Assembly: GCA_050732395.1 (NCBI GenBank)
Contig: JBOHQX010000300.1
Span: forward strand, 6,312-70,311
DNA: 64,000 bases
DNA from: a bacterium
GTDB lineage: Bacteria > Zhuqueibacterota > Zhuqueibacteria > Zhuqueibacterales > Zhuqueibacteraceae
Reading direction: 5' to 3'
Part shown: positions 5,649 to 59,251 of the stretch, one piece after another
How positions within the stretch are numbered: the stretch's first letter is position 1
Layout of the letters: each line of letters opens with the position of its first letter
The notes under the pieces: model-generated
Told to the model about the DNA's origin: nothing
The model's database searches: none
What the model saw: the letters and a program-made list of their open reading frames with translations, nothing else
Translations under genes and position numbers: made by a program

Positions 5649-5680
5649 AAGTTATGAATCAACTCACAAGGAGGTATATC

Positions 5681-8600: not shown

Positions 8601-9076
8601 ATCGCCAAAACGATCTGGTGGCGGCCAAAAACGTTTTGAGCCAATTGCAAGCCATGGCGCAGAGCGGCGATGCGACCGCAGCCGAGCATGTGAAGTTTTT
8701 CGGAATGATCATCACAGATTACGAGGGACAGCAGTCAGCAGAGGATGCGGGTTTAGCGAAGGTTGCGCTGGCCGTGGATCAAGCCAGCGCGCCTCCCATG
8801 AGCACGGCATTGGCGCAGAACTATCCGAACCCCTTCAATCCGGAAACGACTATCCGCTTTCGTCTAAACGAGAGTCAAAAGATTCGGCTACTCCTCTTTG
8901 ACCTCACGGGAAAACTCGCGCGGACTCTGGCGGAAGGCGAGTTCTCGGCCGGAGAGCAGATAATCTCCTGGGACGGACGCGATCAGCAAGGGCAATGGGT
9001 TGCCAGCGGAGTTTATTTCTATGAGCTCCGCACCGAGAATAAAGTTGAACGCAGGAAGATGTCGTTAATTCGTTAG
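5681..9076 (+). CDS. large secreted right-handed beta-helix (PbH1) repeat protein with helical region and T9SS C-terminal sorting domain
   Basis: AGGAGG precedes the ATG at 5681, and the signal-like N-terminus is MFRRILPCCLVVLGYSS. The central region has parallel beta-helix repeats (NNNITLTVSPGA, CRVSNNASSGITVNG, SSGISMSN, GYGITAN, SNGMLF). The C-terminus is LAQNYPNPFNPETTIRFRL...SGVYFYELRTE...MSLIR. Confidence 0.85.
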   Translation: MFRRILPCCLVVLGYSSIDVGSGLAQSVFRVGAWCLHQPQPAPQAVYFNASVGEWRVLTPERDKLLNLGLNYMLACANRLEAEDALVFMGDSLASAPAPKDFKSTLEYVPPGSSTYFPSGQPNYFYQMWRKSRTAQLYLTTTTWDDSVVAGFQAMNNRHSARIDGVHSFLALAEGCTNQNSKITGINFMCDHTIVDSYVQPWHVPTPFTPYPCDSVLTYEIANGLVSADHFMGGGYYLQTGTPSSGTPFQAALQGFVSSLRDPARGIRDATSTTKLWVVLQAHEAAPPISLRLPTKEEILCQVNLALAQGVKGVVYYVYSTVANPYQSGLLNASRDTTTQYNRVKDINTNYQGTGQNLVTIGNNFLNLTWKEGYSIHLNQNEPINSTYTLYDVTSKIPAGATDAESDTYVEVGVLQNGSTSHYMVVNRRCTGTETREITLTHQGNSNYAYRITDVYSGSTTTCYLGSGITTFPYTLVLGPGQGKLLKLEDIGAWSSTISANTTWSGNYSINANVTVNNNITLTVSPGAIVQFGSAKSLTINGKLVADSNNPNQRITFNGASSTPGFWSGIKIYPGSSTNVSTLRRCNVQYATTGITITYTGNQNYVTVDRCRVSNNASSGITVNGNAFSGAFAHPLISNSHVHSNSSSGISMSNYAKPVVSGNRIEGNTGYGITANTSCLPEVKYNLVTSNSSNGMLFTYSSNAEVHRNTVKTNSSGGVYTMFTSNITAHGVGASKGRNEITNNTGLGIYANGSSPVFGIAPNGYNWIQNNTSYEAQQVGSLNQIRAENCYWGGGAPAPSEISGAVDYSPYTTTVPDSVGWGHDGTYDPSYLKTGNSGTIAELFAPQTPNDPMASAAIFASNGSSSDWTEELRAAIHEGLKTGDWSKATEVITSLHRELQNARIPEVDFSVVTAYANDREVASFIGKMLALVLMEKDLLENKVSDALAKSAAFRQSNAEHQAELLANAGLIHLYRQNDLVAAKNVLSQLQAMAQSGDATAAEHVKFFGMIITDYEGQQSAEDAGLAKVALAVDQASAPPMSTALAQNYPNPFNPETTIRFRLNESQKIRLLLFDLTGKLARTLAEGEFSAGEQIISWDGRDQQGQWVASGVYFYELRTENKVERRKMSLIR

Positions 9077-36335: not shown

Positions 36336-36864
36336 AACGTTTAGTCGTCTGGCTCAGATAACTCCCAAGACTGATCTGATTGCAGAGCCATACGACTCAA
36401 TTCCTCTTCACCAAAACCGTTTCTGCCCTGTCATTCAAGCCTTACAAAATCATCTTCTGAATTACTTCCTTCCTTATAGCCTCTCTCCTGAAGCGCACCA
36501 AATCTTTTCTGGATTTTTCGCAAATCAAGCAAAGTCAAGTATAATAGTGAGCGTAAAGACCTCTCCAGCACGACTGCAAGCATGAAGGGGAAGGATTCCC
36601 TACCGAGAACGGACTCTCCATTTTTCGATTTTGCAGGTCACCTAAATGATAAATTAATTCGTAGCTGTTCGGCTCTACCCTGTCGTCCCCAAAAACATGG
36701 CGACTTCCGATTTACGATCGCAGACCGACAATCGAAAATCGAAAATCGTCAATCCGCTGAACAGTCACATTAGTTCATAATCCGCCCAGCGAGGAAGGGC
36801 GCACGGCAAACAGCGTTCAAACTGCATTTTGGTTGACTTAAATGGACCCGTTTATCTTCTTGCC

Positions 36865-39555
36865 ATGGAGCAGCGTATGCGATACTCTAGCAATTCTGCA
36901 TTGGCTTGGTGTGGGAGACTGGTGTTGTGGTGTGCCGGCTGGGCCAGGCTGAGCCCGCTGATCTGCCTGTTCTTCACCTCAAGGCTGTATGCACAAGCCG
37001 CGCCGAGCAATTTAACGGCGACGACGGCGAGCAACAGCCAGATTAATCTCATCTGGGTCGACAACTCAAACAATGAAATCGCGTTCGTCATATTTCGCGG
37101 AACTGTTAATGGCGGCCCCTATGCTCGCATCGACTCCGTCGATGTAAACACAACGACTTATTCCAACCTCGGTTTGACCGGCAATAGCACGTATTACTAC
37201 GTCGTTTGGGCCAAAAAAAATAACAGCCATTCGGGCTTTTCCAATCAAGCCAGCGCGACGACAAATCCGGATTTGCCCGCAACCCCGACCGGCTTGCTGG
37301 CGAATGCGACAAGCGCCAGCCAGATCAATCTGTCTTGGACGGATGCCTCGGGCACAAACAATCCCACCGCTCGTTTTCGCATTGAACGCAAGACCGGCCC
37401 AGGCGGAACGTACGCGCAAATTGACTCGGTTAACGCGCCGACCACCGTCTATTCGGACAATGGTCTGGGTGGAGGCACCCAATATTACTATCGCGTGCGT
37501 TCGGTCAACGTGACCGGATCTTCAAATTATTCCAGCGAAGCCAACGCGACGACGCAGCCTGCTTTACCAGCTCCCACTGGTTTTGTTGCCTCGGCCGTGA
37601 GTAATACTCAAATCAATCTGTCGTGGACGGACAACTCCAACAACGAAACCGATTTCAAGATCGAGCGCAAGAAAACAGGCGAAACCTCCTTCACGGAGAT
37701 TGCGACGGTTGGTGCGAATGTGACGAGTTACTCGAACACCGGCTTGCTCGGTAATCTCGTCTATTTCTATCGCGTGCGCGCCCATCGCGACGCCGGCTTT
37801 TCAGCCTATTCCAATGAGGACAGCGCAATAACCTTGATGAAAGCACCTGCGAATTTGGTTGCCACGGCCGTCGGCAACAGCCAAATTAATCTGGCGTGGA
37901 GCGATCAAACGGCCAGCGAAACCGGTTTCTCCATCGAGCGCAAGACCGGTGCTGCCGGCAGCTATGCGCAGGTGGGGACTGCAGGCGCGAACGCGACGAG
38001 TTTCTCGGATAATGGCCTGACGGTGAGCACGCAGTATTACTATCGCGTGCGCGCGACCAGTGCGATGAATGTTTCCGTATATTCGAACGAAGCCAACGCC
38101 ACGACGTTCAGTGGCCAGCCCGCAACGCCGGACAGCCTGAGCGCGACGGCGGTGAGCAACACGCAGATTAATCTGGCGTGGAAGGACAAGTCTTCCAACG
38201 AGGATGGTTTTAAGATCGAGCGCAAGCAAGGCGCCTTGGGCACGTATGCTGAAATTGCGACGGTAGGGCCGAACGTGAAGAACTATGCGAACTTCAGCGG
38301 TTTAAGCGTGAATGCCAAATACTTCTATCGCGTGCGTGCTTATAACGCGGCGGGCAATTCGGCCTATAGCAACGAAGCCAGCGCGACCACCTTGCTCAAA
38401 GCCCCGACCAATTTGACAGCCACTCCTGTCAGCAGCAGTCAAATCGATCTCGCCTGGACGGATCAAACCGCAAATGAAATCGGCTTTAAGATCGAGCGCA
38501 AGACCGGGTTTGGAGGCAACTATGCGGAAATTGCGACGGTCGGCGTGAATGTGACAAATTACTCGAACACCGGGCTGGCGAATGGTACGCAATATTTCTA
38601 CCGCGTACGCGCATTTAGCACCACCAATGTGTCGGCCTATTCGAACCAGGCCAACGCCACGACGTTCAGCGACCAGCCCGCGACGCCGGACAGCTTGAGC
38701 GCGACGGCGGTGAGCAACACGCAGATCGATCTCGCCTGGAAGGACAAATCATCAAACGAAGAGGGTTTCAAGATTGAGCGCAAGCAGGGCGCTTTAGGCA
38801 CGTATGCTCAGATAGCGACGGTGGGGCCGAACGTGACGAGCTATGCGAACCTCAGCGGTTTGAGCGCGAATACCAAATACTTCTATCGCGTGCGTGCTTA
38901 TAACGCAGCGGGCAACTCGGCCTATAGCAACGAAGCCAGCGCGACCAGCTTGCTCAAAGCCCCGACCAATGCGGTGGCCATCACCATCAGCAGCAGTCAA
39001 ATCGATATCGCATGGACGGATCAAACCACGAATGAAAGCGGCTTTAAAATCGAGCGCAAGACCGGGGCCGCGGGCACCTATGCGGAAATTGTGACGGTTG
39101 GTGCGAATGTGTCACTCTATTCGAACATCGGGCTGGCGGCGGGCACGCAGTATTTTTATCGCATACGCGCATATAGCTCCACCAATGTGTCGGCCTATTC
39201 AAAGGAAGTGAACGCCACGACTTCCGGACCCGCCAAGCCCGGCAGCCCGGACAACAGCAAAGCGGAGGGCGAGGAGAATGCTGCGATTCCCGAGGGCATT
39301 ACGCTGGCGCCGAACTATCCCAACCCGTTCAACCCGTCGACGACGATAGGGTATACATTGTCGGAAGGCACGCAAGTAAAGCTCATCGTGGTCAATATCA
39401 GCGGCCAGGTCGTTGCGGTCCTGGTCAACGGCTATCAGGGTGCGGGCAGGTATGACAAGATTTTTAAAGGCGGGGATTTACCTTCCGGTGTGTACTACGC
39501 CGTGCTGAAGGCGGGTGCGATTACGAGGACACAGCGGATGTTACTCACGAAATAA
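36865..39555 (+). CDS. secreted 8x fibronectin type III repeat protein with T9SS C-terminal sorting domain
   Basis: Signal-like N-terminus ending LYAQAAP. Eight units of about 95 aa carry (S/T)QI(N/D)L(S/A)W(T/K)D...F(K/R)IERK...Y(F/Y)YRVRA...YSNEA(S/N)ATT. The C-terminus is LAPNYPNPFNPSTTIGY...SGVYYAVLKAG...MLLTK. The start could be the ATG at 36865 or 36877, or the TTG at 36829. Confidence 0.85.
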   Translation: MEQRMRYSSNSALAWCGRLVLWCAGWARLSPLICLFFTSRLYAQAAPSNLTATTASNSQINLIWVDNSNNEIAFVIFRGTVNGGPYARIDSVDVNTTTYSNLGLTGNSTYYYVVWAKKNNSHSGFSNQASATTNPDLPATPTGLLANATSASQINLSWTDASGTNNPTARFRIERKTGPGGTYAQIDSVNAPTTVYSDNGLGGGTQYYYRVRSVNVTGSSNYSSEANATTQPALPAPTGFVASAVSNTQINLSWTDNSNNETDFKIERKKTGETSFTEIATVGANVTSYSNTGLLGNLVYFYRVRAHRDAGFSAYSNEDSAITLMKAPANLVATAVGNSQINLAWSDQTASETGFSIERKTGAAGSYAQVGTAGANATSFSDNGLTVSTQYYYRVRATSAMNVSVYSNEANATTFSGQPATPDSLSATAVSNTQINLAWKDKSSNEDGFKIERKQGALGTYAEIATVGPNVKNYANFSGLSVNAKYFYRVRAYNAAGNSAYSNEASATTLLKAPTNLTATPVSSSQIDLAWTDQTANEIGFKIERKTGFGGNYAEIATVGVNVTNYSNTGLANGTQYFYRVRAFSTTNVSAYSNQANATTFSDQPATPDSLSATAVSNTQIDLAWKDKSSNEEGFKIERKQGALGTYAQIATVGPNVTSYANLSGLSANTKYFYRVRAYNAAGNSAYSNEASATSLLKAPTNAVAITISSSQIDIAWTDQTTNESGFKIERKTGAAGTYAEIVTVGANVSLYSNIGLAAGTQYFYRIRAYSSTNVSAYSKEVNATTSGPAKPGSPDNSKAEGEENAAIPEGITLAPNYPNPFNPSTTIGYTLSEGTQVKLIVVNISGQVVAVLVNGYQGAGRYDKIFKGGDLPSGVYYAVLKAGAITRTQRMLLTK
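38104..39222 (+). repeat. tandem duplication of a two-FN3-domain unit (~560 nt x2)
   Basis: Domains 5+6 (38104-38661) and 7+8 (38662-39222) are much closer to each other than to domains 1-4. For example, TFSGQPATPDSLSATAVSNTQINLAWKDKSSNEDGFKIERKQGALGTYAEIATVGPNV matches TFSDQPATPDSLSATAVSNTQIDLAWKDKSSNEEGFKIERKQGALGTYAQIATVGPNV. Confidence 0.85.
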
Positions 39556-39722: not shown

Positions 39723-40784
39723 TCAAAACATCGGATACTCACTCATAAACACATTTATCTTCCCGTTCATATGCTTGGTGCTGTCAGTGATCACCCCAAA
39801 GCCATCGACGACACCGAAATGACAATTCGTGCATGCCGTAATCGGAAAGGGGTTGTGCCCGGTGGGCGGAAGCCCGTGGCAGGAGCCACAAGAGGCCGTG
39901 GCCGGATTCGTCCAATTTGGCACAGCCGAGTTGCCGGTCATGACGTCAGCGGCGTACATGAATTCGTTATCCCCGGCTTGGGCTTTGCGCAGGCCCCAAT
40001 TGCCATGACAATAGCTGTTGCTGCACGTATTGGCGTTGAAATCATAAACAACTTGCGGCGCGCGATTGCCGCCTTCGGTTTTCAAATTGCTCAGCGGACC
40101 GTTGAATACCAGCTCGGCGCGGTTGTTGTCATCAATATGGCTCGCATCGGAAAAGTTGGTGGGCACAACGTGGCATTCCTGACAAATCTCGCGCGCGGGC
40201 AAGTGCTTGAAATAGCCGAGATGCGTTTGGTGCGCGCCCACGGCGGGTGTGGTGGAGCCGGTTTCTCCATCCAATCCTTCGGGCGGCGCGGCGTTGCGCA
40301 GATCCGCGGCATCACGGCCCGAATTACCGTGGCAATTATTGCAAGCCTCCGGACCGCCTTCCTGCGAGTGGCAAGTAACGCAGGAATTGTTCACTTTCAC
40401 TAGACTATAATCCTGGCCATGGCACGGTTGGCAAGAGGCCAAATCGTAATTATTGTTCTTCAAATAGACGTAATGCGAGCTCGAGCCCGACACCCAACCG
40501 GAAGCGGGGTGCGGGAAACTTGCATGGCAGGTGTAGCACGCGACTCCCGCCGTGCCACCGTCATATTGGCTGCCATGGCACGGGCGGCAATTTTCGGTAT
40601 TGTAGTTTTGCTTCGCCAGCACCGCGCCATGGAAGTTCGGCGAAGACGGGTCGAGCCAGCCTTCGCCGTGCACACTCACTTCGTTTTGCACGCCCGTAGG
40701 GGCATCTTGTGGCTCACTGCAAGCGTGGAACATGAGGGCGGCTAACGAGAGCAACACCACCAAAATTATTTGCATTCTTTTCAT
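39723..40784 (-). CDS. multihaem c-type cytochrome of the CxxxxCH/CxxCH (Geobacter-type motif) family, possible lipoprotein; 9 haem sites
   Basis: The ATG at 40784 gives MKRMQIILVVLLSLAALMFHAC (Cys after the signal-like segment). My count is 8 CxxCH (CRPCH, CYTCH, CQPCH, CVTCH, CNNCH, CQECH, CGSCH, CTNCH) plus 1 CxxxxCH (CSNSYCH), the latter followed by GNWG as in the named family. Confidence 0.85.
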   Translation of the reverse strand: MKRMQIILVVLLSLAALMFHACSEPQDAPTGVQNEVSVHGEGWLDPSSPNFHGAVLAKQNYNTENCRPCHGSQYDGGTAGVACYTCHASFPHPASGWVSGSSSHYVYLKNNNYDLASCQPCHGQDYSLVKVNNSCVTCHSQEGGPEACNNCHGNSGRDAADLRNAAPPEGLDGETGSTTPAVGAHQTHLGYFKHLPAREICQECHVVPTNFSDASHIDDNNRAELVFNGPLSNLKTEGGNRAPQVVYDFNANTCSNSYCHGNWGLRKAQAGDNEFMYAADVMTGNSAVPNWTNPATASCGSCHGLPPTGHNPFPITACTNCHFGVVDGFGVITDSTKHMNGKINVFMSEYPMF

Positions 40785-41348: not shown

Positions 41349-42569
41349 TCACTTGCCGCCCGGCGCGAGATTCGTATGGCAGATGACGCAAACGGGATCG
41401 CGGCCCTCCACGTCGTGGCAAGAGGCGCAGGATTCCATGTCCCGGCGTGCCAGCCTGGCATGCTGGCCGCCTTCGCTGCCCAAGCCGAGGAGCACGAAAT
41501 CGGGCGTGCGATGGCTGAGCGGAAATGGCGTCGCAAAACCGGCTTCTTGATTGCGCGCGTGGCATTCGGCGCAGAAGGTTTGCACGTTGTGGCACGAGTA
41601 ACAATCCGACTGCCTGGCGCGCAGATCGAGACTGTGTACGAACACATAGTTCAATTCGTGCACGTTTTCTATAACCAAGGGATTTTTGCCGGAAGGTTCC
41701 GGGCGATTTTCCGGCACACTGCGCACCGGAGCGCCACTGGTGAATTGTAATGTAGGCTCCGCGTGGCACTGCTGGCAAAAATTCTCGGTGTGGCAGGAAG
41801 CGCAGTCGTTGGAGGTATGCTCGGCACGCACCAAGCGCTTGTGCTCTTTAGCCCAATCCGGCAGGCGGTGCGAGAGCGGCAGCATGGTCTCTATTCTGGG
41901 ATGGCAAGATTCGCAGGCGTTGGTGGCTTTCGCATCGTTATGGCAGGAATAACACGTGGCCATGCTGGGCAGAAAGGCCACGCTGGGCTTTACCGATTTC
42001 TCAATGCCTTTATGGCAAACGGCGCAGTCGAGATCTTGGCTTTCGATATGCTGTTTGTGGCTGAAGACAATATCCTCGCGAGCAGGAGCTGCAAAGGCTT
42101 CGAGCTGATCAATATCCGTGTGACAATATTTGCAATCCTCCATATTCTCACTCTCGACCTCGGCATGGCAGGTCGAGCATTCGGCATGCTTCGGAAACAA
42201 CAGATCGCCGGCCTTTTCGCTGGTTTGCGCAGCGGCATGGCAAGCGTTGCATTCCGCGCCGACTTCTTCGAGGTGTTGTTTGTGTGAGAATTTAATTTTA
42301 GCCCACTGCGCCACGGGGTCGCCCCATGACGAGGGCCGGTCGTCACCCGCTCGCAAGATGGTCGCTATTGCCAATAGGCCCAATACGAAAACATGCGAGC
42401 AGGCGTTCTTGCCTCTCCGGACAAAAAGGCAAAAGCATACACGCAAAGATGCAGAGACGCAAAGGTCCGCAAAGAAAGCGCTTTGCACAATCTTTGCATC
42501 TCTGTCCCGCAGTCTCGGGATGCGCTTTTCTGTTTTGGGGATGCAGTTCGAAGGCCTAGTGCTGGACAT
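41349..42569 (-). CDS. dodecahaem c-type cytochrome (c7/c3-type domain polymer-like), periplasmic candidate; start uncertain
   Basis: I count 12 CxxCH: CNACH, CSTCH, CKYCH, CAVCH, CYSCH, CESCH, CASCH, CQQCH, CYSCH, CAECH, CASCH, CVICH. Recurring F(S)HKQH motifs are typical of c7-type units. The first ~50 codons of the track ORF translate a repeat-like sequence (ADLCVSASLRVCFCLF), so the true start is probably internal (hydrophobic HVFVLGLLAIATILRA). Confidence 0.85.
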   Translation of the reverse strand: MSSTRPSNCIPKTEKRIPRLRDRDAKIVQSAFFADLCVSASLRVCFCLFVRRGKNACSHVFVLGLLAIATILRAGDDRPSSWGDPVAQWAKIKFSHKQHLEEVGAECNACHAAAQTSEKAGDLLFPKHAECSTCHAEVESENMEDCKYCHTDIDQLEAFAAPAREDIVFSHKQHIESQDLDCAVCHKGIEKSVKPSVAFLPSMATCYSCHNDAKATNACESCHPRIETMLPLSHRLPDWAKEHKRLVRAEHTSNDCASCHTENFCQQCHAEPTLQFTSGAPVRSVPENRPEPSGKNPLVIENVHELNYVFVHSLDLRARQSDCYSCHNVQTFCAECHARNQEAGFATPFPLSHRTPDFVLLGLGSEGGQHARLARRDMESCASCHDVEGRDPVCVICHTNLAPGGK

Positions 42570-42582: not shown

Positions 42583-43878
42583 TCATGATGCTGCGCTCAG
42601 TTTGGTGAAGAACCAATACTGTAGTCGAAACATGAAACGGACATCATTCTTATAGTAGCGATTGTGCAAGAGTTGGAACTGCCCGTCGAGCGTCAGTTTT
42701 TTCATGGGCCGCACAAGCAGGCCGGCAGCGCCGGAGAACAGGGATTCGCGCTCCGGAGCATCCCCATCTAGTTTGTACGTGGCCCAGGAGAGTTGCACAC
42801 TGGGCATGAACTGGTTGCGGCGCGTGGGATAATAAAACGAGGCGTTGAGGCCGTCCAGATTGCCGGCATAGCCGCCGCGATGCACGTAGCTGACACCGCC
42901 GTACTTCAGCTCCGTTCCCACCGTGAGGCGCAAGGATTCGTCGCCGGAGTAGAAAATTGCGGCAGCATTGCCATAAAGACGCAACGACGGTCGGTACTGG
43001 TAATAAAACCCGCCTTCGACCTCGTGGTTGTCTTCGACATTGAAAGCAGAAAAAATCGAATTCCAGGGCAGGCGGGGAGAGCGGTAGATATAATTGCCGG
43101 TCAAAATCATTTCGGGCGAGATTTCCGCGCGCACGGAAAGATCGCCACGCGCCAGCTCTTCGGCGTGAAAATCATAATCGCTGCGAGCATACAGAGAAGT
43201 TTTGGCATTTACGAACCAGGAGGCGTCGAGCGAGCCCAATCGAGACGCGCGATCCGTGGGCTCGACGTAGAGCGTAAACACGTTGCCCACGGAATCTGCC
43301 CGCTGTGCATCGTAGCCGGGACGCAATTGCCGTTTATCAAAAAAGCTAAGGCTCAGATTCAAATCTGTCTTCGGGGTCCATACCGCTTGTCCGCCGGCCA
43401 TGTAATTTTGGTCGAAATCGTCGATCACTTTGACGCGCTGATCGGCCGGCAGCAAGCCGCCTCCGAATGCTTTCAGGCGTAACCAGGGCGCGGCCCGCAC
43501 CTTGATTTGCGCGCCGTCAATCGTACCCACCGCCACACCGCCGAAAACCGGTTGGCGGCCAAACTGTACATCGACGCGCTGCGCAATGTTCTTCCACTCC
43601 AAATACAAATTGTACATGCGCGCCTTGCCGTCGCCGGCGAGCGGGGTGCTGAAATCGGTGTCAAACTGACCATAGCTGCGCACCAGAATGTTTTTCGTGG
43701 AGAAATCGATTTGATAGGCCTGGTAACCGCGCGCAGAACTGGATTCGATGTTGATCGAGTCGCTGCGCTGGAAGGCATACAACGAGCTGGTGAGCCGGCC
43801 GGAGAGTGTTTGCGCGTTCGACATCGAAGGCAAGGCAAGGCTGAGCAACAGCAGGCAAATATTTCGCAATCGCGTCAT
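42583..43878 (-). CDS. outer-membrane beta-barrel (porin-like) protein
   Basis: Signal peptide MTRLRNICLLLLSLALPSMSNAQ. It shows alternating aromatic/hydrophilic strand patterns throughout (YAFQRS, YQAYQIDFS, VRSYGQFDTDFS, LYLEW, YARSDYDF, FYYQYRPSLRLYGNAA, RFMFRLQYWF). The stop is 13 nt from the maximal start of the 12-haem gene. Confidence 0.7.
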   Translation of the reverse strand: MTRLRNICLLLLSLALPSMSNAQTLSGRLTSSLYAFQRSDSINIESSSARGYQAYQIDFSTKNILVRSYGQFDTDFSTPLAGDGKARMYNLYLEWKNIAQRVDVQFGRQPVFGGVAVGTIDGAQIKVRAAPWLRLKAFGGGLLPADQRVKVIDDFDQNYMAGGQAVWTPKTDLNLSLSFFDKRQLRPGYDAQRADSVGNVFTLYVEPTDRASRLGSLDASWFVNAKTSLYARSDYDFHAEELARGDLSVRAEISPEMILTGNYIYRSPRLPWNSIFSAFNVEDNHEVEGGFYYQYRPSLRLYGNAAAIFYSGDESLRLTVGTELKYGGVSYVHRGGYAGNLDGLNASFYYPTRRNQFMPSVQLSWATYKLDGDAPERESLFSGAAGLLVRPMKKLTLDGQFQLLHNRYYKNDVRFMFRLQYWFFTKLSAAS

Positions 43879-44025: not shown

Positions 44026-46836
44026 TTATTTCATCATGACCATCTTCTTCATCATTGAGAACTTCTCGCTTTCGAGCCGATAGAGGTATAGGCCGGAGGG
44101 CACGATGTTCCCGGCCCGGTCGCGACCGTCCCAAACGATGAGATGATAGGCCGCTGCCTGATCGCTATCCACCAGCTGCCGCACCTGATGGCCGAGCGCA
44201 TCGAAGATGGTGATACGCACATGGCCCGGCTGCGGCAATTGATATTTGATCGTGGTTTCAGGATTGAATGGGTTCGGGTAATTCTGCTCGAGCGCATATT
44301 CGGTGGGCGTGCCGCCGCCACGTTCTTCCACCCGCGTGATCACCCCGACCTCGGAAGAGTACGGGCTTTCATTGCCCGAGTAGTCAAAGGTGGACAAACG
44401 ATAATAATATGTGCGTCCGCTCGATACTTGATTGTCGGTGTATTCCGTCTGGATGAGCGTGGCCAGCGGCGTTGTTCCTTTGGGATCAAACCCGGGCGTC
44501 GTGCCGCGATAGATTGCGAAATATTTGAAATCTTCATCAATGGGACCATCCCATCTCAAGTTGACGGTGCCGGCAACATAGCTGGCTGCGATATTAGTTG
44601 GCGGCGCCGGCGCGAGGTTGTCGACCGAATATCCGCTGTCTGGCGCGGTCTCGTAAACCACGCCGTTCGCCTGGCCGGAAATGAAGAACACTGACCAATG
44701 CAGGCCCGCAGCGGTGCTGTCATAAAGCGTGGGCGCGACCGTACTATAGGCCTCGTAAGCGGAAGCCGGTAACCAGCCAACAAAATCCCAAGTTTCGGCC
44801 TGATTGACCGTATAGCGCTTGCCAACGTTGCTCAAGAGGCCATTCGCAATCAGCTCTTCTTTGGAACCGAGCTGAATGCCGACACTGGTGGCAACATCAT
44901 CGACGCGCCTCCAGATCGAATAGCTCGTCACTGGATTGGTTGACGCTGGACCGTCGGCGGCAAATTTCGACCACATGAGGCGTACTTGCTTGCCTTGATC
45001 GCCGCCCACGTCCTCGATTGAGACGATTTCGCCCGCGCCTACATCGCCGGTGGTCAGCGTGGCGATGGAGCGGCGCAGCAAGGCAATTGCGTAGCCGGCA
45101 TTGTGCACACCGCGACTTCCGTCCTCCTCGACAAACAACAAATTGTACCACGCATTGGTGTAGGCGTGACGCCGTTCGATTTCCGCCTGCGACAAGCCCG
45201 GTAGTGTCCAATCATAGTTTGCTTTAATCACCGCATCCGAGGTGCGCGGCGGCAGCAACTGGTCGAGACGGTGCTCCAAGCCTTCGATTTCAAGGCGCGT
45301 GCCCTCAATGGTGCCGTCTTCGTCGAAATCCGCCTTGGCCGCAATATCGTCGAAAGACGTAATCGGGCCGTGGCACGTCTGGCAAACGGCGACGTTTTGC
45401 ACGTCATCGCCATGATCGTCGGGTGTGCCGTTATCCGTGCTTACAGCGAAGGTGTGTTGTCCAACTTTGTCATGTCCGGGCTGGCCCTCTGCCGGCGTGG
45501 CGCCCATATGGCAAGTCACACAGGCATCTGCGACAGCGAACTTGTGGCCGGAGCTCCCGATCGGCACGCCATATTCGATGGCATTGGAACCGTCAATCAT
45601 GTCGGCCTGATTGCTATGATGCGGGCCGAAGCGCGTGGAAAGATTGGCGGGATTGCTGACATAGTCCACCGCATCGCGGCGGCTGATGTGGCATTGCATA
45701 CAGATTTTGCCCATGCCGCCGTAATTGACTACGGTCACACTATCGCCCAGGGTGACATCGTTCAAGGTCCGCACTTGCGCCGGCAACAATTCCGACCGGT
45801 GCGGATCGTGGCAAACCGCGCAACTAATCTGCTCAAAGCCGCTGGACGGCCGGGTATCCGGATTCTTGGGATCGACAACTCGAATAAAGCCCCAGCCGGA
45901 ATGGCAACGAGTGCAACTGGGATTGGTCGAAGGCGAAAGCACACCCACTGCATGCCTGGATGCTTTCCACTGCGTACTGATGCGATGATACGGCGCTTCT
46001 TCATGACAGTAGCCGCACGAGGCCTCGTCCAGGCTCATCGCGATGCTGGTCTTGTCGCCCCGATGCTGCGTTGCCGGCCCATGGCAGTTTTCGCATTGGA
46101 TATTTGCTCTCGCCGCCAGCTTGGGATACTGCGAGACCAGCGCGGCGTAGTTGCCGGGCTGCAACGTCGGCGGAAAAGTCCAGCCGACTTCTCTTGCCAC
46201 GTCATCAAAACCTTCATTGACGGCCGCGGGGCTGTCGTCAAATCCAACATTGTGGCATTCGATGCAAGATTCGTTGTAAGAACCAAGCTGGCCGTCAATC
46301 GCGCGTTTGAAAAATGTTGCATGGCCAGTTTTACCCCAGGCGGTGAAATTGGCGCTGTGGCACAAGCTGCATTGCCCTTCCGAAGGCTCCGAAGGCAAGC
46401 CGTCTGTGCCACCCACCCCGGCGAACTTCGCCGAGGTGATCGTAGTCGTCTTCGGCGCGCTGGTTCCGCCCGCCGTGGTGATCTGCAATTGCACGGTGAA
46501 TTTGCCTTCAATGTCCGGTTTGAAGGTGGTTTGTCTCTTGTTCGTACTATCCAACACCGCAGTGGAGCCTGCAGGCCTTGCCGTCAACGACCAGGCATAA
46601 CTGGTCACGGCGGCATTGAGCGAGTCACGGCCGAGGAGATAGACCACCTGGCCCACGCCGACAACAGACAAACCAGTTGAGCGAGGCGAAGTCCAGCCCA
46701 AGTCATGAATCTCTTGAGGGCTGTAACCTTCGATCTTGATGATCGCATTTGGAACTTGCGCATGCGTGGGAGGAACCAAGAAAGTCGTAGCTATCATCGT
46801 TGCGGCCAGCACACGCCATAGTATCGAGCACATCAT
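44026..46836 (-). CDS. extracellular-type 9-haem c-type cytochrome with N-terminal PKD/Ig-like domain, FN3 domain and T9SS C-terminal sorting domain
   Basis: GGAGG lies 5 nt upstream of the ATG at 46836. Signal peptide MMCSILWRVLAATMIATTFLVPPTHAQ. I count 9 CxxCH: CSLCH, CIECH, CENCH, CGYCH, CTRCH, CAVCH, CMQCH, CVTCH, CQTCH. The FN3-like unit is APAPPTNIAASYVAGTVNLRWDGP...YYYRLSTFDYSGNESPYS. The C-terminus is LEQNYPNPFNPETTIKYQL...SGLYLYRLESE...MVMMK. Confidence 0.85.
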   Translation of the reverse strand: MMCSILWRVLAATMIATTFLVPPTHAQVPNAIIKIEGYSPQEIHDLGWTSPRSTGLSVVGVGQVVYLLGRDSLNAAVTSYAWSLTARPAGSTAVLDSTNKRQTTFKPDIEGKFTVQLQITTAGGTSAPKTTTITSAKFAGVGGTDGLPSEPSEGQCSLCHSANFTAWGKTGHATFFKRAIDGQLGSYNESCIECHNVGFDDSPAAVNEGFDDVAREVGWTFPPTLQPGNYAALVSQYPKLAARANIQCENCHGPATQHRGDKTSIAMSLDEASCGYCHEEAPYHRISTQWKASRHAVGVLSPSTNPSCTRCHSGWGFIRVVDPKNPDTRPSSGFEQISCAVCHDPHRSELLPAQVRTLNDVTLGDSVTVVNYGGMGKICMQCHISRRDAVDYVSNPANLSTRFGPHHSNQADMIDGSNAIEYGVPIGSSGHKFAVADACVTCHMGATPAEGQPGHDKVGQHTFAVSTDNGTPDDHGDDVQNVAVCQTCHGPITSFDDIAAKADFDEDGTIEGTRLEIEGLEHRLDQLLPPRTSDAVIKANYDWTLPGLSQAEIERRHAYTNAWYNLLFVEEDGSRGVHNAGYAIALLRRSIATLTTGDVGAGEIVSIEDVGGDQGKQVRLMWSKFAADGPASTNPVTSYSIWRRVDDVATSVGIQLGSKEELIANGLLSNVGKRYTVNQAETWDFVGWLPASAYEAYSTVAPTLYDSTAAGLHWSVFFISGQANGVVYETAPDSGYSVDNLAPAPPTNIAASYVAGTVNLRWDGPIDEDFKYFAIYRGTTPGFDPKGTTPLATLIQTEYTDNQVSSGRTYYYRLSTFDYSGNESPYSSEVGVITRVEERGGGTPTEYALEQNYPNPFNPETTIKYQLPQPGHVRITIFDALGHQVRQLVDSDQAAAYHLIVWDGRDRAGNIVPSGLYLYRLESEKFSMMKKMVMMK

Positions 46837-47451: not shown

Positions 47452-48969
47452 TTACATACCCGCTGCAATGCCGTGGCATTCATGACAGCTCGTCTCCTTC
47501 CAGGCGTCGCCGATGTCGATCGGATGTGCGAATTCCAATCCTTTCAGGTCCATCTGCTGCACCTCATTGCCGTTGCCTTGTTCAATGATCAAATGGCAGG
47601 CGTTGCAATCGCGGGTAATAGTTTTGCCCTCCGCACTTTGGTGCAAGCCGTCGTGGCAGCGATAACAGCCCGGGCTGAGATAGTGCCCGATGTGATTGGG
47701 ATACGCGCGCCAGCTCGATTTCATGTAGGGAAAATTGTTGCGAGCATAGACTTCCTGCACGCGCTGAATGGCATTGTCTACGGCCTGCCGCTTTTGCGGC
47801 ACCAGGTCGGGATAGTTGGCGTCATAAAACGCGCGAATCGTGGAATCAATCGCAGCCAGCGCCGCTTCTTTGGTTGGATATTCCGGCGTGAGCGCCTCTA
47901 CGGCGGTGGCTTTGATCGAAGGCAGGCTCATGTCGATCAAGCCGTTGCTCATGATAGTGTTCAAAGCAATATTGGGCGCTTGGAAAATGTGCGCAGGTCT
48001 GTTGTGGCAATCGATGCAGTCCATGACCCGAATTTTCTTGGCGTCGATTTGGCCATTTGACATGAGGGCTGGATCAGAGGAATAAACCGTGACTTCGCCT
48101 TTGGCATTGGTGGCACGCACCCAGGGAATGACCTCGCGCGATTCGTCCGTGGCATAGTACTCGATTTTGTTGCTGATGTTCATGTGCCAATGAATCCCCG
48201 AAGTGTGCCCCTCTTCCTGACTGCCGCCGCCGATCTTTATCAGCAGGTTGTAGGCCCAGCGCGTGTTGTGCTCGTCCTTCATGAAGTGCACGCGCATATC
48301 CTGCTTGTTGCCGAAAAACGCCTGCGGCCAGTGGCAATGCTCGCACGTTTCACGCGCCGGGCGCAGATTTTCGATCGGCGTGGGAATCGGCCGGGAATAC
48401 TTCTTGAACAACACCGAATAGACCTGATAAGCGCCGGAGAGCTTCGATTGCACGTACCACCCGGCGCCCGGGCCGACGTGGCAACCGGCGCAGGTCACGC
48501 GCGCATGCGGCGAGTTCTGATAGGCGGTGTATTCCGGCTCCATGACCGTGTGACAGGTTTTGCCGCAAAAGGTCGTGGATTCGCTGAACTCATAGGCTTT
48601 GTAACTGCCCACGGCGGTGAAGAGCAAAAAGAGCGTGGTGACGATTCCCACGATTGCGGCCATGCGGCGATGGCGCGGCAGATTGAAATCGATGTGCAGC
48701 AAGGCGGGCTCGGTCGCGGAGCGGCTGCGGCGGCGATGCTCGCGCCACATGCCGATGGGAACGAGCACCAACCCCAAAACCAAAAACGCAGGAAAGACGA
48801 GATAGGTGAGAATACCGAGATAAGGCATCGTGGTCTCGGCAAAAAAATCCACTAAAAAGAAAAACAATATACAGGCAAAGCTCACGGCCGCAATCCCGGC
48901 GCCCATCATGCTGACGGTGTTGTAGAATGACCCGGGGAGCTTGCCGCTTTTTTCTAGCGATTCTGCCAT
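47452..48969 (-). CDS. inner-membrane multihaem cytochrome, ImcH-like architecture (3 TM + NapC/NirT-like region, 7 haem sites)
   Basis: AAGGAAG lies upstream of the ATG at 48969. Three hydrophobic helices are present (GAGIAAVSFACILFFFLVDFF; YLGILTYLVFPAFLVLGLVLVPIG; MAAIVGIVTTLFLLFTAVG). The haem sites are one CX3CH (CGKTCH) and six CxxCH (CAGCH, CEHCH, CIDCH, CYRCH, CNACH, CHECH). Confidence 0.75.
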   Translation of the reverse strand: MAESLEKSGKLPGSFYNTVSMMGAGIAAVSFACILFFFLVDFFAETTMPYLGILTYLVFPAFLVLGLVLVPIGMWREHRRRSRSATEPALLHIDFNLPRHRRMAAIVGIVTTLFLLFTAVGSYKAYEFSESTTFCGKTCHTVMEPEYTAYQNSPHARVTCAGCHVGPGAGWYVQSKLSGAYQVYSVLFKKYSRPIPTPIENLRPARETCEHCHWPQAFFGNKQDMRVHFMKDEHNTRWAYNLLIKIGGGSQEEGHTSGIHWHMNISNKIEYYATDESREVIPWVRATNAKGEVTVYSSDPALMSNGQIDAKKIRVMDCIDCHNRPAHIFQAPNIALNTIMSNGLIDMSLPSIKATAVEALTPEYPTKEAALAAIDSTIRAFYDANYPDLVPQKRQAVDNAIQRVQEVYARNNFPYMKSSWRAYPNHIGHYLSPGCYRCHDGLHQSAEGKTITRDCNACHLIIEQGNGNEVQQMDLKGLEFAHPIDIGDAWKETSCHECHGIAAGM

Positions 48970-49400: not shown

Positions 49401-49955
49401 TTACTGCTTGGGCGTCGTGTGCGCAATCTTCTTACTGTATTCTGCAAAATTGAACCCCTTGAAATTTGGGCTTTCGGAATTGTGGCAGGTCAAACAGAGT
49501 TTTTCGTCGCCTTTGACCAGGCCGACAGTCTCGCCCTTGATCTTGCCGGTATCGATATCCTTCATGACTTGCATGCCTTTATATTCTGAACCGGCGCCAT
49601 GGCAAGATTCACAGCCTACGCCCTGGCCCGGCTTGAAAGTGGACGCCAGTTGGGCCGCGGCCACTCCCGCTGCGGTATCATGGCATTTCAGACAAGCGGC
49701 ATCTTTTTGCGGATCGGCGATGCCTTTTTGCTTGGCGATCTCCAACGCTGCAGGCGTGGCGAGCGTGGCAAACGCTTTGGCATGCAGACTCTTCTGCCAA
49801 ATCGTGAATGCCGCGCCGGTCTTGGGCGCCAGATGACAAGGCTTGCAGGTATTAGCGCCGACATATTTGGCTTTGCTTTGCGCCAAGAGCGCGCAGGGTA
49901 CGATCGTGCAAATCGCAATGGTCGTAGCAGCCATGCTTTTCAAACGCGCCATCAT
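49401..49955 (-). CDS. periplasmic tetrahaem cytochrome c (cytochrome c554-like family)
   Basis: AAAGGAA lies upstream of the ATG at 49955. Signal peptide MMARLKSMAATTIAICTIVPCALLAQS. There are 4 CxxCH (CKPCH, CLKCH, CESCH, CLTCH). The N-terminal YVGANTCKPCH...WQKSLHAKAF is typical of c554-type proteins. Confidence 0.8.
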   Translation of the reverse strand: MMARLKSMAATTIAICTIVPCALLAQSKAKYVGANTCKPCHLAPKTGAAFTIWQKSLHAKAFATLATPAALEIAKQKGIADPQKDAACLKCHDTAAGVAAAQLASTFKPGQGVGCESCHGAGSEYKGMQVMKDIDTGKIKGETVGLVKGDEKLCLTCHNSESPNFKGFNFAEYSKKIAHTTPKQ

Positions 49956-58072: not shown

Positions 58073-58128
58073 TGAATTTCCTCGGGCAGTGGGTTGTTTT
58101 ATAAAAGGCAAATTCCATAACGGCCTTA

Positions 58129-59249: not shown

Positions 59250-59251
59250 CC

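What the first reader, a model, noticed from the sequence alone, without database searches (positions are those of the whole stretch)
44026..46836. Multihaem cytochrome c carrying a T9SS C-terminal sorting domain
A single 936-aa polypeptide combines several modules. It has a Sec signal peptide, a PKD/Ig-like N-domain (YAWSLTARPAGSTAVLDSTNKRQTTFKPDIEGKFTVQLQI) and nine CxxCH sites. These are followed by a beta-rich middle domain, an FN3 unit and a C-terminus (LEQNYPNPFNPETTIKYQL...GLYLYRL). That C-terminus is near-identical in motif to the CTDs of the four adhesin-like cargo proteins in this window.

This implies that haem attachment in the periplasm is followed by T9SS export and probably cell-surface anchoring. 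That localisation route differs from the T2SS/lipoprotein routes known for MtrC/OmcA or OmcS/OmcZ-type cytochromes.
Basis: partly seen in the sequence, partly recalled or inferred. Interest (0 to 1): 0.8.

Follow-up and report, generated by a model that had tools for sequence, protein, structure and literature searches.

The report
Nine-haem cytochrome with T9SS export tag

Summary
The minus-strand ORF 44026-46836 encodes 936 aa. It has a Sec signal peptide, a PKD-like domain, nine CxxCH motifs, a beta-sandwich, an FN3-like domain and a terminal domain that passes the curated T9SS type A model (TIGR04183, 34.4 vs 23 bits).

It is not an assembly chimera. More than 100 full-length relatives at 40-100% identity, from KSB1, Calditrichota and Rhodothermia assemblies, keep all nine motifs and the tag.

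The haem module is closest to OcwA, the nine-haem surface reductase of Thermincola (E 1.4e-16). Of its 150 nearest 50%-identity clusters, 67 end in this tag.

In the window and four relatives the gene adjoins a predicted 22-24-strand outer-membrane barrel, a 12-haem cytochrome and a haem lipoprotein. An ImcH-like quinol oxidase lies nearby in the window and one relative. This forms a porin-cytochrome conduit.

My best reading is a T9SS-exported terminal reductase for extracellular electron transfer.

Not shown:
- T9SS core genes in this genome (none in the window).
- Secretion itself.
- Surface anchoring.

Ten full-text searches found no paper linking T9SS to multihaem cytochromes. I rate it a new variant of a known kind, interest about 0.62.

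The parts
44026..46836 (-). Whole gene: 936-aa nonahaem c-type cytochrome with T9SS type A C-terminal domain (stop codon 44026-44028)
   Evidence: ORF and nine CxxCH. ATG preceded by GGAGG. Full-length relatives at 40-100% identity.
46759..46836 (-). Sec signal peptide, aa 1-26 (..PPTHA|QVP); no lipobox
   Evidence: Sequence inspection. The AF2 model shows an N-terminal helix at 2-20. Relatives have MKR/MKK-type signals at the same place.
46417..46755 (-). PKD/Ig-like beta-sandwich, aa ~28-140
   Evidence: Pfam K319L-like_PKD 18.7 bits, below threshold. PDB profile hits to KIAA0319L and collagenase PKD domains. pLDDT about 90 in the AF2 model. Relative P0212 passes the Pfam threshold.
45046..46389 (-). 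Nonahaem module, aa ~150-597: nine CxxCH plus a C-terminal helical bundle, OcwA/NrfA-like
   Evidence: nine CxxCH, eight fully invariant and the first cysteine of motif 1 (C156) kept in at least 90%, plus nine further conserved His (H172, 258, 284, 295, 346, 406, 431, 461, 578). PDB profile hits to OcwA 6i5b (E 1.4e-16), 6qvm (1.2e-11) and NrfA (1e-5); helices at 513-595.
44644..45039 (-). Beta-sandwich middle domain, aa ~600-731, with conserved DVPNDQGKQVRV..W motif; likely a stalk or spacer
   Evidence: AF2 strands at 604-729. Conserved in alignment A1. The same aa ~600-936 cassette matches CTD-bearing ORFs in loci where no haem-module match was reported (L009, L011, L061).
44341..44643 (-). 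FN3-like domain, aa ~732-832
   Evidence: PDB profile hits 5z06 (2.9e-9), 3mpc, titin and chitinase A1 FN3. Foldseek matches to FN3 tandems.
44029..44298 (-). T9SS type A C-terminal sorting domain, aa ~847-936, preceded by a low-confidence linker EERGGG (aa 836-841)
   Evidence: TIGR04183 34.4 bits against a cut-off of 23. Pfam Por_Secre_tail 24.7 and FlgD_ig 34.1. Seven predicted strands. NYPNPFNP invariant. Homologous to four other tails in the window.
42583..43878 (-). 431-aa outer-membrane beta-barrel with signal peptide and about 22-24 strands; candidate porin sheath of the conduit
   Evidence: No Pfam or NCBIfam hit. AF2 pLDDT 84.7, pTM 0.74, 24 strand elements. Foldseek matches outer-membrane barrels, best TM 0.55-0.56 to the FimD usher chain, a barrel I recall as 24-stranded. 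75 homologues, those with names from KSB1 and Calditrichaeota. Syntenic in L001, L003, L005 and L098.
41349..42569 (-). 12-haem cytochrome (12 CxxCH in 406 aa), poly-c7 type; candidate periplasmic or barrel-inserted wire
   Evidence: Best PDB hit is 3ov0, a 318-aa 'cytochrome c family protein' that I recall as Geobacter dodecahaem GSU1996 (2.9e-13). Syntenic homologues.
39723..40784 (-). 353-aa lipoprotein cytochrome with 8 CxxCH plus one CxxxxCH (GSu_C4xC__C2xCH domain); lipobox ..LMFHAC|S
   Evidence: The homologue in L098 has the canonical lipobox LLLNAC|S. Syntenic.
47452..48969 (-). ImcH-like inner-membrane quinol oxidase: 505 aa from the SD-supported ATG, three N-terminal TM helices, CGKTCH (CX3CH) plus six CxxCH, NapC/NirT region
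   Evidence: Matches the ImcH family signature given in PMC6295460. A 48% identical homologue lies next to the CTD-cytochrome in L005.
49401..49955 (-). Small tetrahaem cytochrome c554-like protein with signal peptide; candidate periplasmic carrier
   Evidence: Pfam Cytochrome_C554 64 bits. Four CxxCH. Start codon.
3780..5648 (+). Other T9SS type A cargo (622 aa); context showing the organism uses this tag
   Evidence: TIGR04183 42.4 bits.
5654..9076 (+). Other T9SS type A cargo (1140 aa)
   Evidence: TIGR04183 36.3 bits.
32139..35939 (+). Other T9SS type A cargo (1266 aa) with a region resembling a sodium/calcium exchanger
   Evidence: TIGR04183 32.0 bits; TIGR00845 'sodium/calcium exchanger 1' 131.6 bits, far below its cut-off of 679.85.
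36829..39555 (+). Other T9SS cargo (908 aa, seven FN3 repeats plus tail)
   Evidence: Pfam fn3 x7; Por_Secre_tail 25.2 bits. Tail alignment.

Best explanation
The gene encodes an OcwA-like nine-haem c-type cytochrome. I propose it is the extracellular end of a respiratory electron conduit and reaches the cell surface through the type IX secretion system.

Proposed sequence of events:
1. Sec export through the signal peptide (shown by sequence).
2. Covalent haem attachment and folding in the periplasm (established knowledge for CxxCH cytochromes).
3. Recognition of the C-terminal beta-sandwich tag by the T9SS and passage of the folded, haem-loaded protein through the SprA/Sov translocon (inferred).
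4. Removal of the tag at the flexible linker, then either attachment to a surface lipopolysaccharide or release (inferred from P. gingivalis and F. johnsoniae type A cargo).

The beta-sandwich and FN3-like domains would act as a stalk. The PKD-like domain may help contact with solids.

Proposed electron path: from the quinol pool through the ImcH-like oxidase, via the small tetrahaem carrier, to the 12-haem cytochrome held in the 22-24-strand barrel together with the haem lipoprotein, and from there to the nine-haem protein. That protein would reduce insoluble or high-potential acceptors such as Fe(III) or Mn(IV) minerals, or partner cells.
For: Architecture and haem motifs.

Family conservation: 460 hits, more than 100 full-length. 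In 30 aligned members eight of the nine CxxCH motifs are fully invariant and the first cysteine of motif 1 is kept in at least 90%; nine further His and the NYPNPFNP motif are conserved.

Haem module: closest solved relatives are cell-surface reductases of metal-reducing monoderms, OcwA 6i5b (E 1.4e-16) and 6qvm (1.2e-11). OcwA's properties are described in PMC6703420.

Reach of the fusion:
- 627 clusters at E<=1e-30 share the haem module.
- 67 of the 150 nearest end in a homologous tag, in a short form (630-800 aa) and a long form (850-1060 aa).
- Short forms pass Pfam's Por_Secre_tail threshold.
- Relatives from Chloroflexota, Myxococcota and Chromatiaceae MAGs carry the same haem module with other tails. 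The tag is therefore a lineage-specific localisation device.

Context:
- The barrel model has pLDDT 84.7.
- The 12-haem protein resembles PDB 3ov0, which I recall as GSU1996.
- The downstream cytochrome is a lipoprotein.
- The inner-membrane cytochrome matches the ImcH signature.
- The barrel and cytochrome module is adjacent in the window, L001, L003, L005 and L098.

Other cytochromes with the same tag exist: L003 5151-7109 and L098 5827-8697.
Against: - No T9SS core gene lies in the window, and the rest of the genome could not be read.
- The tail scores below Pfam's Por_Secre_tail threshold in this protein (24.7 against 27). By sequence it is closer to solved FlgD Ig-like domains (1.1e-5) than to the PorU tail (0.85).
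- In four of nine loci examined (L094, L095, L096, L097) the gene stands alone, with no barrel or cytochrome neighbours. The link to a conduit is therefore not universal.
- No cofactor-loaded redox protein is listed among T9SS cargo in the 2023 effector review, so transport of a nine-haem protein has no precedent.
- OcwA also reduces nitrite and hydroxylamine, so an enzymatic role is possible.
- The AF2 model of the haem region is only moderate (pLDDT about 50-75), and the full-length fold search gave no information on it.
Confidence: 0.6

Rival explanations
1. T9SS-secreted but soluble. The tag is cleaved and the nine-haem protein is released into the medium or matrix. It would then act as a diffusible or matrix-bound electron carrier rather than as a surface-anchored partner of the barrel complex.
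For: From my own knowledge, type A tails in Flavobacterium johnsoniae (for example ChiA) lead to release rather than anchoring. The gene stands alone in L094-L097. The long stalk-like domains are absent in the short form.
Against: The gene is adjacent to the barrel and cytochrome module in five loci. The stalk-like beta-sandwich and FN3 domains of the long form suit a tethered protein. A released cytochrome is costly.
Confidence: 0.15
2. The protein is a NrfA/OTR/MccA-type catalytic enzyme acting on a soluble substrate such as nitrite, hydroxylamine or sulfur oxyanions, whether periplasmic or secreted. It would not be a mineral- or electrode-facing electron outlet.
For: The module belongs to the NrfA-related group. 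OcwA reduces nitrite and both oxidises and reduces hydroxylamine, and has two open-coordination haems.
Against: There is no CxxCK motif. Nine conserved extra His are enough for bis-His ligation of all nine haems, although the same count misled for OcwA. OcwA's nitrite turnover is very slow, about 1 per minute. The neighbours are a barrel, haem wires and an ImcH-like oxidase rather than NrfH/NrfBCD-type partners.
Confidence: 0.12
3. The C-terminal domain is only a FlgD-like Ig fold with a structural or binding role and is not a working secretion signal. The cytochrome would stay in the periplasm.
For: Pfam FlgD_ig scores above threshold while Por_Secre_tail scores below it. The closest solved sequences are FlgD domains. 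T9SS core genes are not shown for this genome.
Against: The curated T9SS type A model is passed. The domain is at the extreme C-terminus and ends in the usual K-x-x-x-x-K/R. The same tail ends four unrelated large surface-type proteins in the window. In the genome scan the tail motif hit mainly MAGs labelled Ignavibacteriota, Calditrichota, KSB1, Bacteroidota, Marinimicrobia, Cloacimonadota, Latescibacterota, Zixibacteria and Gemmatimonadota, plus a few otherwise-labelled MAGs. Relatives pass the Pfam model. The same haem module outside these lineages carries different tails.
Confidence: 0.08
4. The conduit runs inward. The surface cytochrome would take electrons from Fe(II), minerals, cathodes or partner cells.
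For: Multihaem conduits are reversible in principle, and CymA and CbcL-type oxidases occur in both iron reducers and iron oxidisers.
Against: The linked inner-membrane protein is ImcH-like, a family so far implicated only in quinol oxidation in Fe(III) reducers. No Cyc2 or MtoA-type gene was seen in the window.
Confidence: 0.05

Closest known systems
OcwA, nonahaem cell-surface terminal reductase of Thermincola potens JR (PDB 6I5B)
   Same: Both have nine CxxCH haems and belong to the NrfA/c554/MccA-related fold group. Both have a C-terminal helical bundle with the conserved DGSxGxHN helix. The PDB profile match is E 1.4e-16 across the haem module. OcwA's role is as the outermost reductase of an extracellular electron transfer chain.
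   Different: OcwA is 526 aa, comes from a monoderm, and has no PKD-like domain, stalk domains or sorting tag. Sequence similarity is confined to haem motifs, ligands and the helical bundle. Whether the open-coordination haems 2 and 5 and the His-Met haem 9 are kept here is unknown.
Porin-cytochrome conduits: MtrCAB of Shewanella, and OmaB-OmbB-OmcB and ExtABCD of Geobacter
   Same: The gene module has the same make-up: an outer-membrane barrel, a haem-dense periplasmic cytochrome and a lipoprotein cytochrome, together with an inner-membrane quinol oxidase.
   Different: The barrel shows no detectable sequence relation to MtrB or OmbB (no Pfam or NCBIfam hit). From my own knowledge, the known extracellular partners (MtrC, OmcA, OmcB, ExtC/D) are lipoproteins, and MtrC/OmcA depend on the type II system. 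Here an additional outermost cytochrome carries a T9SS tag instead.
[quoted passage not shown]
   Same: The layout is an N-terminal Sec signal, a functional region, Ig/FN3-type spacers and an 80-90 aa C-terminal beta-sandwich that matches TIGR04183.
   Different: Listed cargo classes are proteases, glycan-degrading enzymes, adhesins, S-layer proteins, nucleases and a non-covalent haem binder; the review does not mention cytochromes. This cargo would carry nine covalently bound haems and serve respiration. It comes from lineages outside Bacteroidota.
PDB 6QVM 'multiheme cytochrome cf'
   Same: The second-best PDB profile hit (E 1.2e-11) covers haem motifs 3-9 of the module. From memory, this is the surface multihaem cytochrome of Carboxydothermus ferrireducens, another monoderm metal reducer.
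   Different: The domain composition and number of haems differ, and there is no T9SS tag. Its identity and localisation are recalled from memory, not tested here.
ImcH (GSU3259) family of inner-membrane quinol oxidases; applies to the neighbouring gene 47452-48969
   Same: Three N-terminal TM helices, one CX3CH next to the last helix, six CX2CH and a length of 505 aa match the family description of 495-519 aa.
   Different: NCBIfam reports only NrfH/NapC-type similarity.

Membership tests
T9SS type A cargo (TIGR04183 / Pfam PF18962 C-terminal domain) | C-terminal domain scores above the curated model cut-off | tested here: met
   TIGR04183 scores 34.4 bits against a cut-off of 23. Pfam PF18962 scores 24.7, below 27, in this protein, but 38.1 and 43.8 in short-form relatives P0199 and P0212.
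T9SS type A cargo (TIGR04183 / Pfam PF18962 C-terminal domain) | Domain lies at the extreme C-terminus of a protein that has an N-terminal Sec signal | tested here: met
   The match covers aa 853-933 of 936. The signal peptide is aa 1-26.
T9SS type A cargo (TIGR04183 / Pfam PF18962 C-terminal domain) | Beta-sandwich fold of about seven strands | tested here: met
   The AF2 model has seven strands between aa 848 and 934, with pLDDT about 75-86. Foldseek lists PorU 6za2 among its hits.
T9SS type A cargo (TIGR04183 / Pfam PF18962 C-terminal domain) | Genome encodes the T9SS core (SprA/Sov, PorK/L/M/N, PorU, PorV) | tested here: inconclusive
   None is found among the ORFs of the 64 kb window. PorV/PorQ-family proteins are named from KSB1 and Calditrichia MAGs. 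They score below the PorV equivalog cut-off and sit in polysaccharide-utilisation-like loci. Indirect support comes from five type A tails in this one window.
T9SS type A cargo (TIGR04183 / Pfam PF18962 C-terminal domain) | T9SS-dependent secretion with cleavage of the tail | not testable with these tools
   This needs genetics or proteomics.
OcwA-like / NrfA-related multihaem cytochromes | Significant sequence relation to OcwA/NrfA over the haem core and helical bundle | tested here: met
   The profile of 30 members matches 6i5b at E 1.4e-16 in four collinear segments that include the final helices. It also matches NrfA 2vr0 and 2j7a at about 1e-5.
OcwA-like / NrfA-related multihaem cytochromes | Nine CxxCH haem sites | tested here: met
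   Nine motifs are present. In 30 relatives eight are fully invariant and the first cysteine of motif 1 is kept in at least 90%.
OcwA-like / NrfA-related multihaem cytochromes | Haem packing and axial ligation as in OcwA (open haems 2 and 5, His-Met haem 9) | not testable with these tools
   The model has no haems, and pLDDT is 50-75 in this region. Nine conserved extra His and invariant M380 and M444 are noted. The count of ligands alone does not decide this.
MtrC/OmcA/UndA outer-membrane decahaem family | Ten haems in a staggered cross, flanking beta-barrel domains, lipoprotein signal | tested here: not met
   The protein has nine haems and no lipobox. The Pfam MtrC-MtrF_II-IV hit (49.5 bits) covers only a haem-motif stretch, aa 264-348. 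The NCBIfam OmcA/MtrC model does not match this protein.
Porin-cytochrome conduit (gene-cluster level) | Large outer-membrane barrel encoded next to a periplasmic multihaem cytochrome and an outer cytochrome | tested here: met
   The barrel model has 22-24 strands and pTM 0.74. A 12-haem protein and a haem lipoprotein are adjacent. The arrangement recurs in L001, L003, L005 and L098.
Porin-cytochrome conduit (gene-cluster level) | Homology of the barrel to MtrB/PioB/OmbB | tested here: not met
   No Pfam or NCBIfam family matches. The named homologues are all 'hypothetical protein'.
ImcH family (neighbour gene 47452-48969) | Three TM helices, CX3CH next to the TM region, about six CX2CH, about 500 aa | tested here: met
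   The sequence features match the family description in PMC6295460. Direct alignment to GSU3259 was not done.

The most novel reading that the evidence does not exclude
The type IX secretion system is the general route by which bacteria of the FCB superphylum (KSB1, Calditrichota, Ignavibacteriota, Rhodothermia) place covalently haem-loaded respiratory cytochromes on or beyond their outer membrane. That would make multihaem cytochromes a new functional class of T9SS cargo, the first carrying covalently bound redox cofactors. It would also make T9SS a third, independent solution to the problem of getting electron-transfer proteins outside a diderm cell, alongside type II-dependent lipoproteins and cytochrome filaments.
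Probability: 0.55. Interest if true: 0.78.

Novelty: new variant of a known kind. Interest (0 to 1): 0.62.

Why it matters
**For extracellular electron transfer.** How outer cytochromes reach the surface is known only for a few Proteobacteria. These lineages are largely uncultured but common in sediments, aquifers and bioreactors. A clear sequence signature (OcwA-like nonahaem module plus T9SS tag, often beside a barrel and haem-wire module and an ImcH-like oxidase) would allow metal or electrode respiration to be predicted in them. At present public annotation calls these proteins only 'T9SS type A sorting domain-containing protein' or 'hypothetical'.

**For secretion biology.** It would show that the T9SS translocon can pass a large, folded, cofactor-loaded redox protein. 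It would also extend T9SS function from degradation, adhesion and motility to energy metabolism. The 2023 effector review does not list this class.

**For engineering.** The tag could be tried as a way to display multihaem cytochromes on Bacteroidota.

Tried and rejected
1. **Chimeric assembly.** Rejected. The architecture is conserved in more than 100 relatives, and an identical copy exists in a separate assembly.

2. **MtrC/OmcA membership.** Rejected. The protein has nine haems and no lipobox, the NCBIfam OmcA/MtrC model does not match, and the Pfam hit is partial.

3. **Fold search of the full-length model.** This led nowhere for the haem module.

4. **Promoter and terminator scan of 39.5-51.2 kb.** No enrichment over shuffles, so the operon structure is not resolved.

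5. **Search for T9SS core genes.**
   - Most ORFs of 150 aa or more in the window that looked like genes were scanned, and none matched.
   - I screened fetched loci for PorU/PorV-like gene pairs. One PorV/PorQ-family gene turned up in L049, of unknown taxon.
   - A profile search then found PorV/PorQ-family proteins named from KSB1 and Calditrichia. Their context is polysaccharide-utilisation-like, and they fall below the PorV equivalog score. This is weak support only.

6. **The single genome-collection scan.** It was largely consumed by the tail motif NYPNPFNP, so most of the 80 loci are unrelated cargo. It was still useful for the taxonomic range of the tail and for four haem-module relatives without a tail.

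7. **Search for a cultured carrier of the family.** Only MAG names were found.

8. **Literature.** Ten searches pairing T9SS, type IX or Por secretion with multihaem or c-type cytochromes or with extracellular electron transfer gave no relevant paper. KSB1 paired with extracellular electron transfer gave only FeGenie-style surveys. The library lacks most subscription journals, so this is absence in that library only.

Full report
**Observation**

The finding's coordinates hold an ORF on the minus strand, 44026..46836. It encodes 936 aa from an ATG preceded by GGAGG; the longer 948-aa reading from TTG at 46872 has no ribosome-binding site. There are exactly nine CxxCH motifs (aa 156-489), and 18 of the 19 cysteines lie in them.

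Pfam finds several multihaem families (Cytochrome_C7, the MtrC/MtrF II-IV stretch, c554). For the tail it finds FlgD_ig (34.1 bits, above 27) and Por_Secre_tail (24.7 bits, just below 27). NCBIfam's curated T9SS type A model TIGR04183 is passed, 34.4 bits against a cut-off of 23, over aa 853-933.

The PKD-like N-domain and the FN3-like unit are weak in Pfam. Both are supported by a PDB profile search, by the AF2 model and by relatives that pass the Pfam threshold.

Four other large proteins in the window end in the same kind of tail. The tails share the NYPNPFNP...GxYxY...KKMxLxK motifs but are only 26-42% identical to the cytochrome's tail overall.

**Not an artefact**

A search of 5.8 billion proteins gave 460 hits. 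More than 100 are full-length (about 900-945 aa) at 40-100% identity. Those with names come from candidate division KSB1, Calditrichaeota and Rhodothermia MAGs, and are labelled only 'T9SS type A sorting domain-containing protein' or 'hypothetical'.

In an alignment of 30 members (43-82% identity), eight of the nine CxxCH motifs are fully invariant, and the first cysteine of motif 1 is kept in at least 90%. Nine further histidines, two methionines and the tail motif are invariant or nearly so. An identical copy exists in a separate Logan assembly. A chimeric join is excluded as an explanation of the architecture.

The window itself comes from an NCBI MAG labelled 'bacterium', with locus-tag prefix ACREOO and a 76.8 kb contig.

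**What the haem module is**

A profile of the family matches OcwA (PDB 6i5b) at E 1.4e-16, in four collinear pieces that include the terminal helices with the DGSxGxHN motif. It then matches 6qvm ('multiheme cytochrome cf') at 1.2e-11 and NrfA at about 1e-5.

OcwA is the nine-haem terminal reductase on the surface of the monoderm Thermincola potens. Structurally it belongs with NrfA, c554 and MccA rather than with MtrC (PMC6703420). The protein here is therefore OcwA-like and is not a member of the MtrC/OmcA family: it has nine haems, no lipobox and no NCBIfam OmcA/MtrC match.

The full-length AF2 model is moderate (pLDDT 75). It shows a beta-sandwich N-domain, a helical haem region, two beta-sandwich domains and a seven-strand tail. 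Its fold search was dominated by the FN3/Ig part and said nothing about the haem core.

**How widespread the fusion is**

I scored the PKD plus haem module (aa 28-600) against 1.84 billion cluster representatives. There were 6238 hits at E<=1e-3, 2798 at E<=1e-10 and 627 at E<=1e-30.

Of the best 150, 67 end within 5 residues of their C-terminus in a domain homologous to this family's tail. They come in two forms:
- a short form of 630-800 aa (PKD, nine haems, tail);
- a long form of 850-1060 aa, with the beta-sandwich and FN3 stalk.

Two short forms pass Pfam's own Por_Secre_tail threshold, and one such cluster is named from Ignavibacteriales.

The other relatives carry different ends:
- TSP3 repeats followed by an unknown domain ending F[FY]RV;
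- a ..YPxAxLR end;
- other endings.

These include MAGs labelled Limnocylindrales, Myxococcaceae and Chromatiaceae.

The tail motif itself hit mainly MAGs labelled Ignavibacteriota, Calditrichota, KSB1, Bacteroidota, Marinimicrobia, Cloacimonadota, Latescibacterota, Zixibacteria and Gemmatimonadota, plus a few otherwise-labelled MAGs. The same redox module has thus been combined with lineage-specific localisation devices, and the T9SS tag is the device used in the FCB group.

Cytochromes are rare among tagged proteins. Among 122 ORFs with the tail motif in the fetched loci, only this family and one 7-haem protein had three or more CxxCH. At least two further tagged cytochrome types do exist: L003 5151-7109 (652 aa, 7 CxxCH) and L098 5827-8697 (956 aa, with an EB_dh domain).

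**Context in the window**

All of the following genes are on the minus strand.

| Coordinates | Product | Evidence |
|---|---|---|
| 49401-49955 | c554-like tetrahaem protein with signal peptide | |
| 47452-48969 | 505-aa cytochrome: three N-terminal TM helices, one CX3CH (CGKTCH), six CxxCH, NapC/NirT region | |
| 44026-46836 | the tagged nonahaem protein | |
| 42583-43878 | 431-aa protein with no family hit; predicted 22-24-strand outer-membrane barrel | |
| 41349-42569 | 12-haem protein | |
| 39723-40784 | lipoprotein with 8 CxxCH plus one CxxxxCH | |

The 505-aa cytochrome has exactly the signature given for the ImcH quinol-oxidase family in PMC6295460. The barrel model has pLDDT 84.7 and pTM 0.74, with its best fold match (TM 0.55-0.56) to the FimD usher chain, whose barrel I recall as 24-stranded. 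The 12-haem protein's best solved relative is PDB 3ov0, which I recall as the Geobacter dodecahaem GSU1996 (2.9e-13).

Together these genes give a complete path from the quinol pool to the outside. It is built like the porin-cytochrome conduits of Shewanella and Geobacter. The barrel, however, has no detectable relation to MtrB or OmbB, and the conduit has an extra outermost cytochrome carrying a T9SS tag.

**Synteny elsewhere**

The barrel, 12-haem (14 in L098) and lipoprotein-cytochrome module lies next to the tagged cytochrome in:
- a KSB1 MAG (L001);
- a Calditrichaeota MAG (L003);
- a metagenome contig (L098);
- L005, in a different order and with an ImcH-like gene directly downstream.

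In three more distant long-form members (L094, L095, L096; 44-47% identity) and in a short-form member (L097), the gene stands alone. The link to a conduit is therefore recurrent but not universal.

**T9SS machinery**

No core gene was found in the window, and the tools do not allow the rest of the MAG to be read.

Among the fetched loci I found one PorV/PorQ-family gene (NF033709, 153.9 bits against a cut-off of 90). A profile of seven such proteins retrieved PorV/PorQ-family proteins named from KSB1 and Calditrichia MAGs. These score below the PorV equivalog cut-off and sit beside TonB-dependent receptors and glycoside hydrolases. They are only weak evidence.

The strongest indirect evidence is the density of type A tails: five in 64 kb, and on unrelated surface-type proteins.

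**Mechanism and rivals**

Shown by sequence:
- the Sec signal, the nine haem sites and the curated T9SS tail;
- a family-wide fusion of the haem module and the tail;
- neighbours of porin-cytochrome type.

Inferred:
- periplasmic haem attachment (standard for CxxCH cytochromes);
- passage of the folded holo-protein through the T9SS translocon;
- cleavage at the flexible EERGGG linker, then anchoring or release;
- electron flow ImcH-like, tetrahaem, 12-haem in the barrel, lipoprotein, nonahaem, external acceptor.

The rivals are as follows. Each has a stated refuting experiment in its own entry.
1. Release as a soluble extracellular carrier.
2. A NrfA-like catalytic role on soluble substrates; OcwA has slow nitrite and hydroxylamine activity.
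3. A tail that is merely a FlgD-like Ig domain. FlgD domains are the closest solved sequences, and Pfam's Por_Secre_tail threshold is narrowly missed.
4. Inward electron flow.

**Novelty**

Ten full-text searches paired T9SS, type IX or Por secretion with multihaem or c-type cytochromes or with extracellular electron transfer. They found nothing relevant. The 2023 review of T9SS effectors lists proteases, glycan-degrading enzymes, a haem-binding protein, S-layer proteins, adhesins and nucleases, and does not mention cytochromes. Surveys of KSB1 MAGs report porin-cytochrome hits without noting the tag.

The library omits most subscription journals, so prior mention elsewhere cannot be excluded.

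The parts are all of known kinds: an OcwA-like cytochrome, a porin-cytochrome module, an ImcH-like oxidase and a T9SS tail. The combination, and the secretion route it implies, appear undescribed. I therefore rate it a new variant of a known kind, with interest 0.62.

Noticed in passing
window 50208-50950 (minus strand): Two overlapping ORF fragments lie in different frames between the pyruvate:ferredoxin oxidoreductase gene and the cytochrome cluster. By eye, one ([26 protein letters not shown]...) resembles a dihydroorotate-dehydrogenase-like protein. This may be a frameshifted pseudogene or a sequencing error.
   Followed up: no
P0208, P0215, P0224, P0247, P0251, P0253, P0266, P0280, P0300; L006 9710-12124; L008 9851-12151: Relatives of the same nonahaem module that lack the T9SS tail often end in bacterial TSP3 repeats followed by an unannotated ~100-150 aa domain. 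Its last strand reads [FY][FYH]R[VA]xxxP (13 of the 150 nearest clusters). This may be another lineage-specific sorting or anchoring domain. It has no Pfam match.
   Followed up: partly
L003 5151-7109; L098 5827-8697: Two further, different cytochromes carry the same T9SS tail. One is a 652-aa protein with 7 CxxCH in a Calditrichaeota MAG. The other is a 956-aa protein with 7 CxxCH, two longer-spaced motifs and an EB_dh haem-binding domain, lying directly upstream of a family member.
   Followed up: partly
L085 4572-9032; L088 2128-9032: In KSB1 and Calditrichia MAGs, PorV/PorQ-family outer-membrane proteins sit immediately after unannotated ~1030-1050-aa proteins. Glycoside hydrolases follow in both loci, and L088 also has a TonB-dependent receptor and other tailed proteins. 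This looks like a recurring polysaccharide-utilisation-like arrangement rather than a porU-porV pair.
   Followed up: no
window 57605-63660 (minus strand): A cluster encodes an OsmC/Ohr-like peroxiredoxin, an ExbD/TolR-like protein, an ExbB/TolQ-like protein, a 547-aa TPR protein, a PstS-family binding protein and a TonB C-terminal-domain protein. The TPR protein has only weak TPR-level similarity to PorW/SprE and PorE, far below their cut-offs.
   Followed up: no
window 51079-54798 (minus strand); 27922-28155: A single-polypeptide pyruvate:ferredoxin oxidoreductase (1239 aa) lies just upstream of the cytochrome cluster. tRNA-Thr(CGT) and tRNA-Phe(GAA) lie at 27.9-28.2 kb, and a 391-aa 'ORF' that overlaps them is spurious.
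   Followed up: no
window 41349-42569: The 12-haem gene has a strong Shine-Dalgarno ATG at 42569, which adds about 55 aa before the signal-like hydrophobic stretch. The homologue in L001 is 352 aa and aligns only from residue 77. The true start, and whether the protein has a cleaved signal or an N-terminal anchor, are unresolved.
   Followed up: partly
L009, L011, L061 (matches to aa ~600-936): The beta-sandwich, FN3 and tail cassette of the long form matches CTD-bearing ORFs in Neomarinimicrobiota, KSB1 and Ignavibacteriales loci where no haem-module match was reported. This suggests a mobile 'stalk plus tag' module.
   Followed up: no
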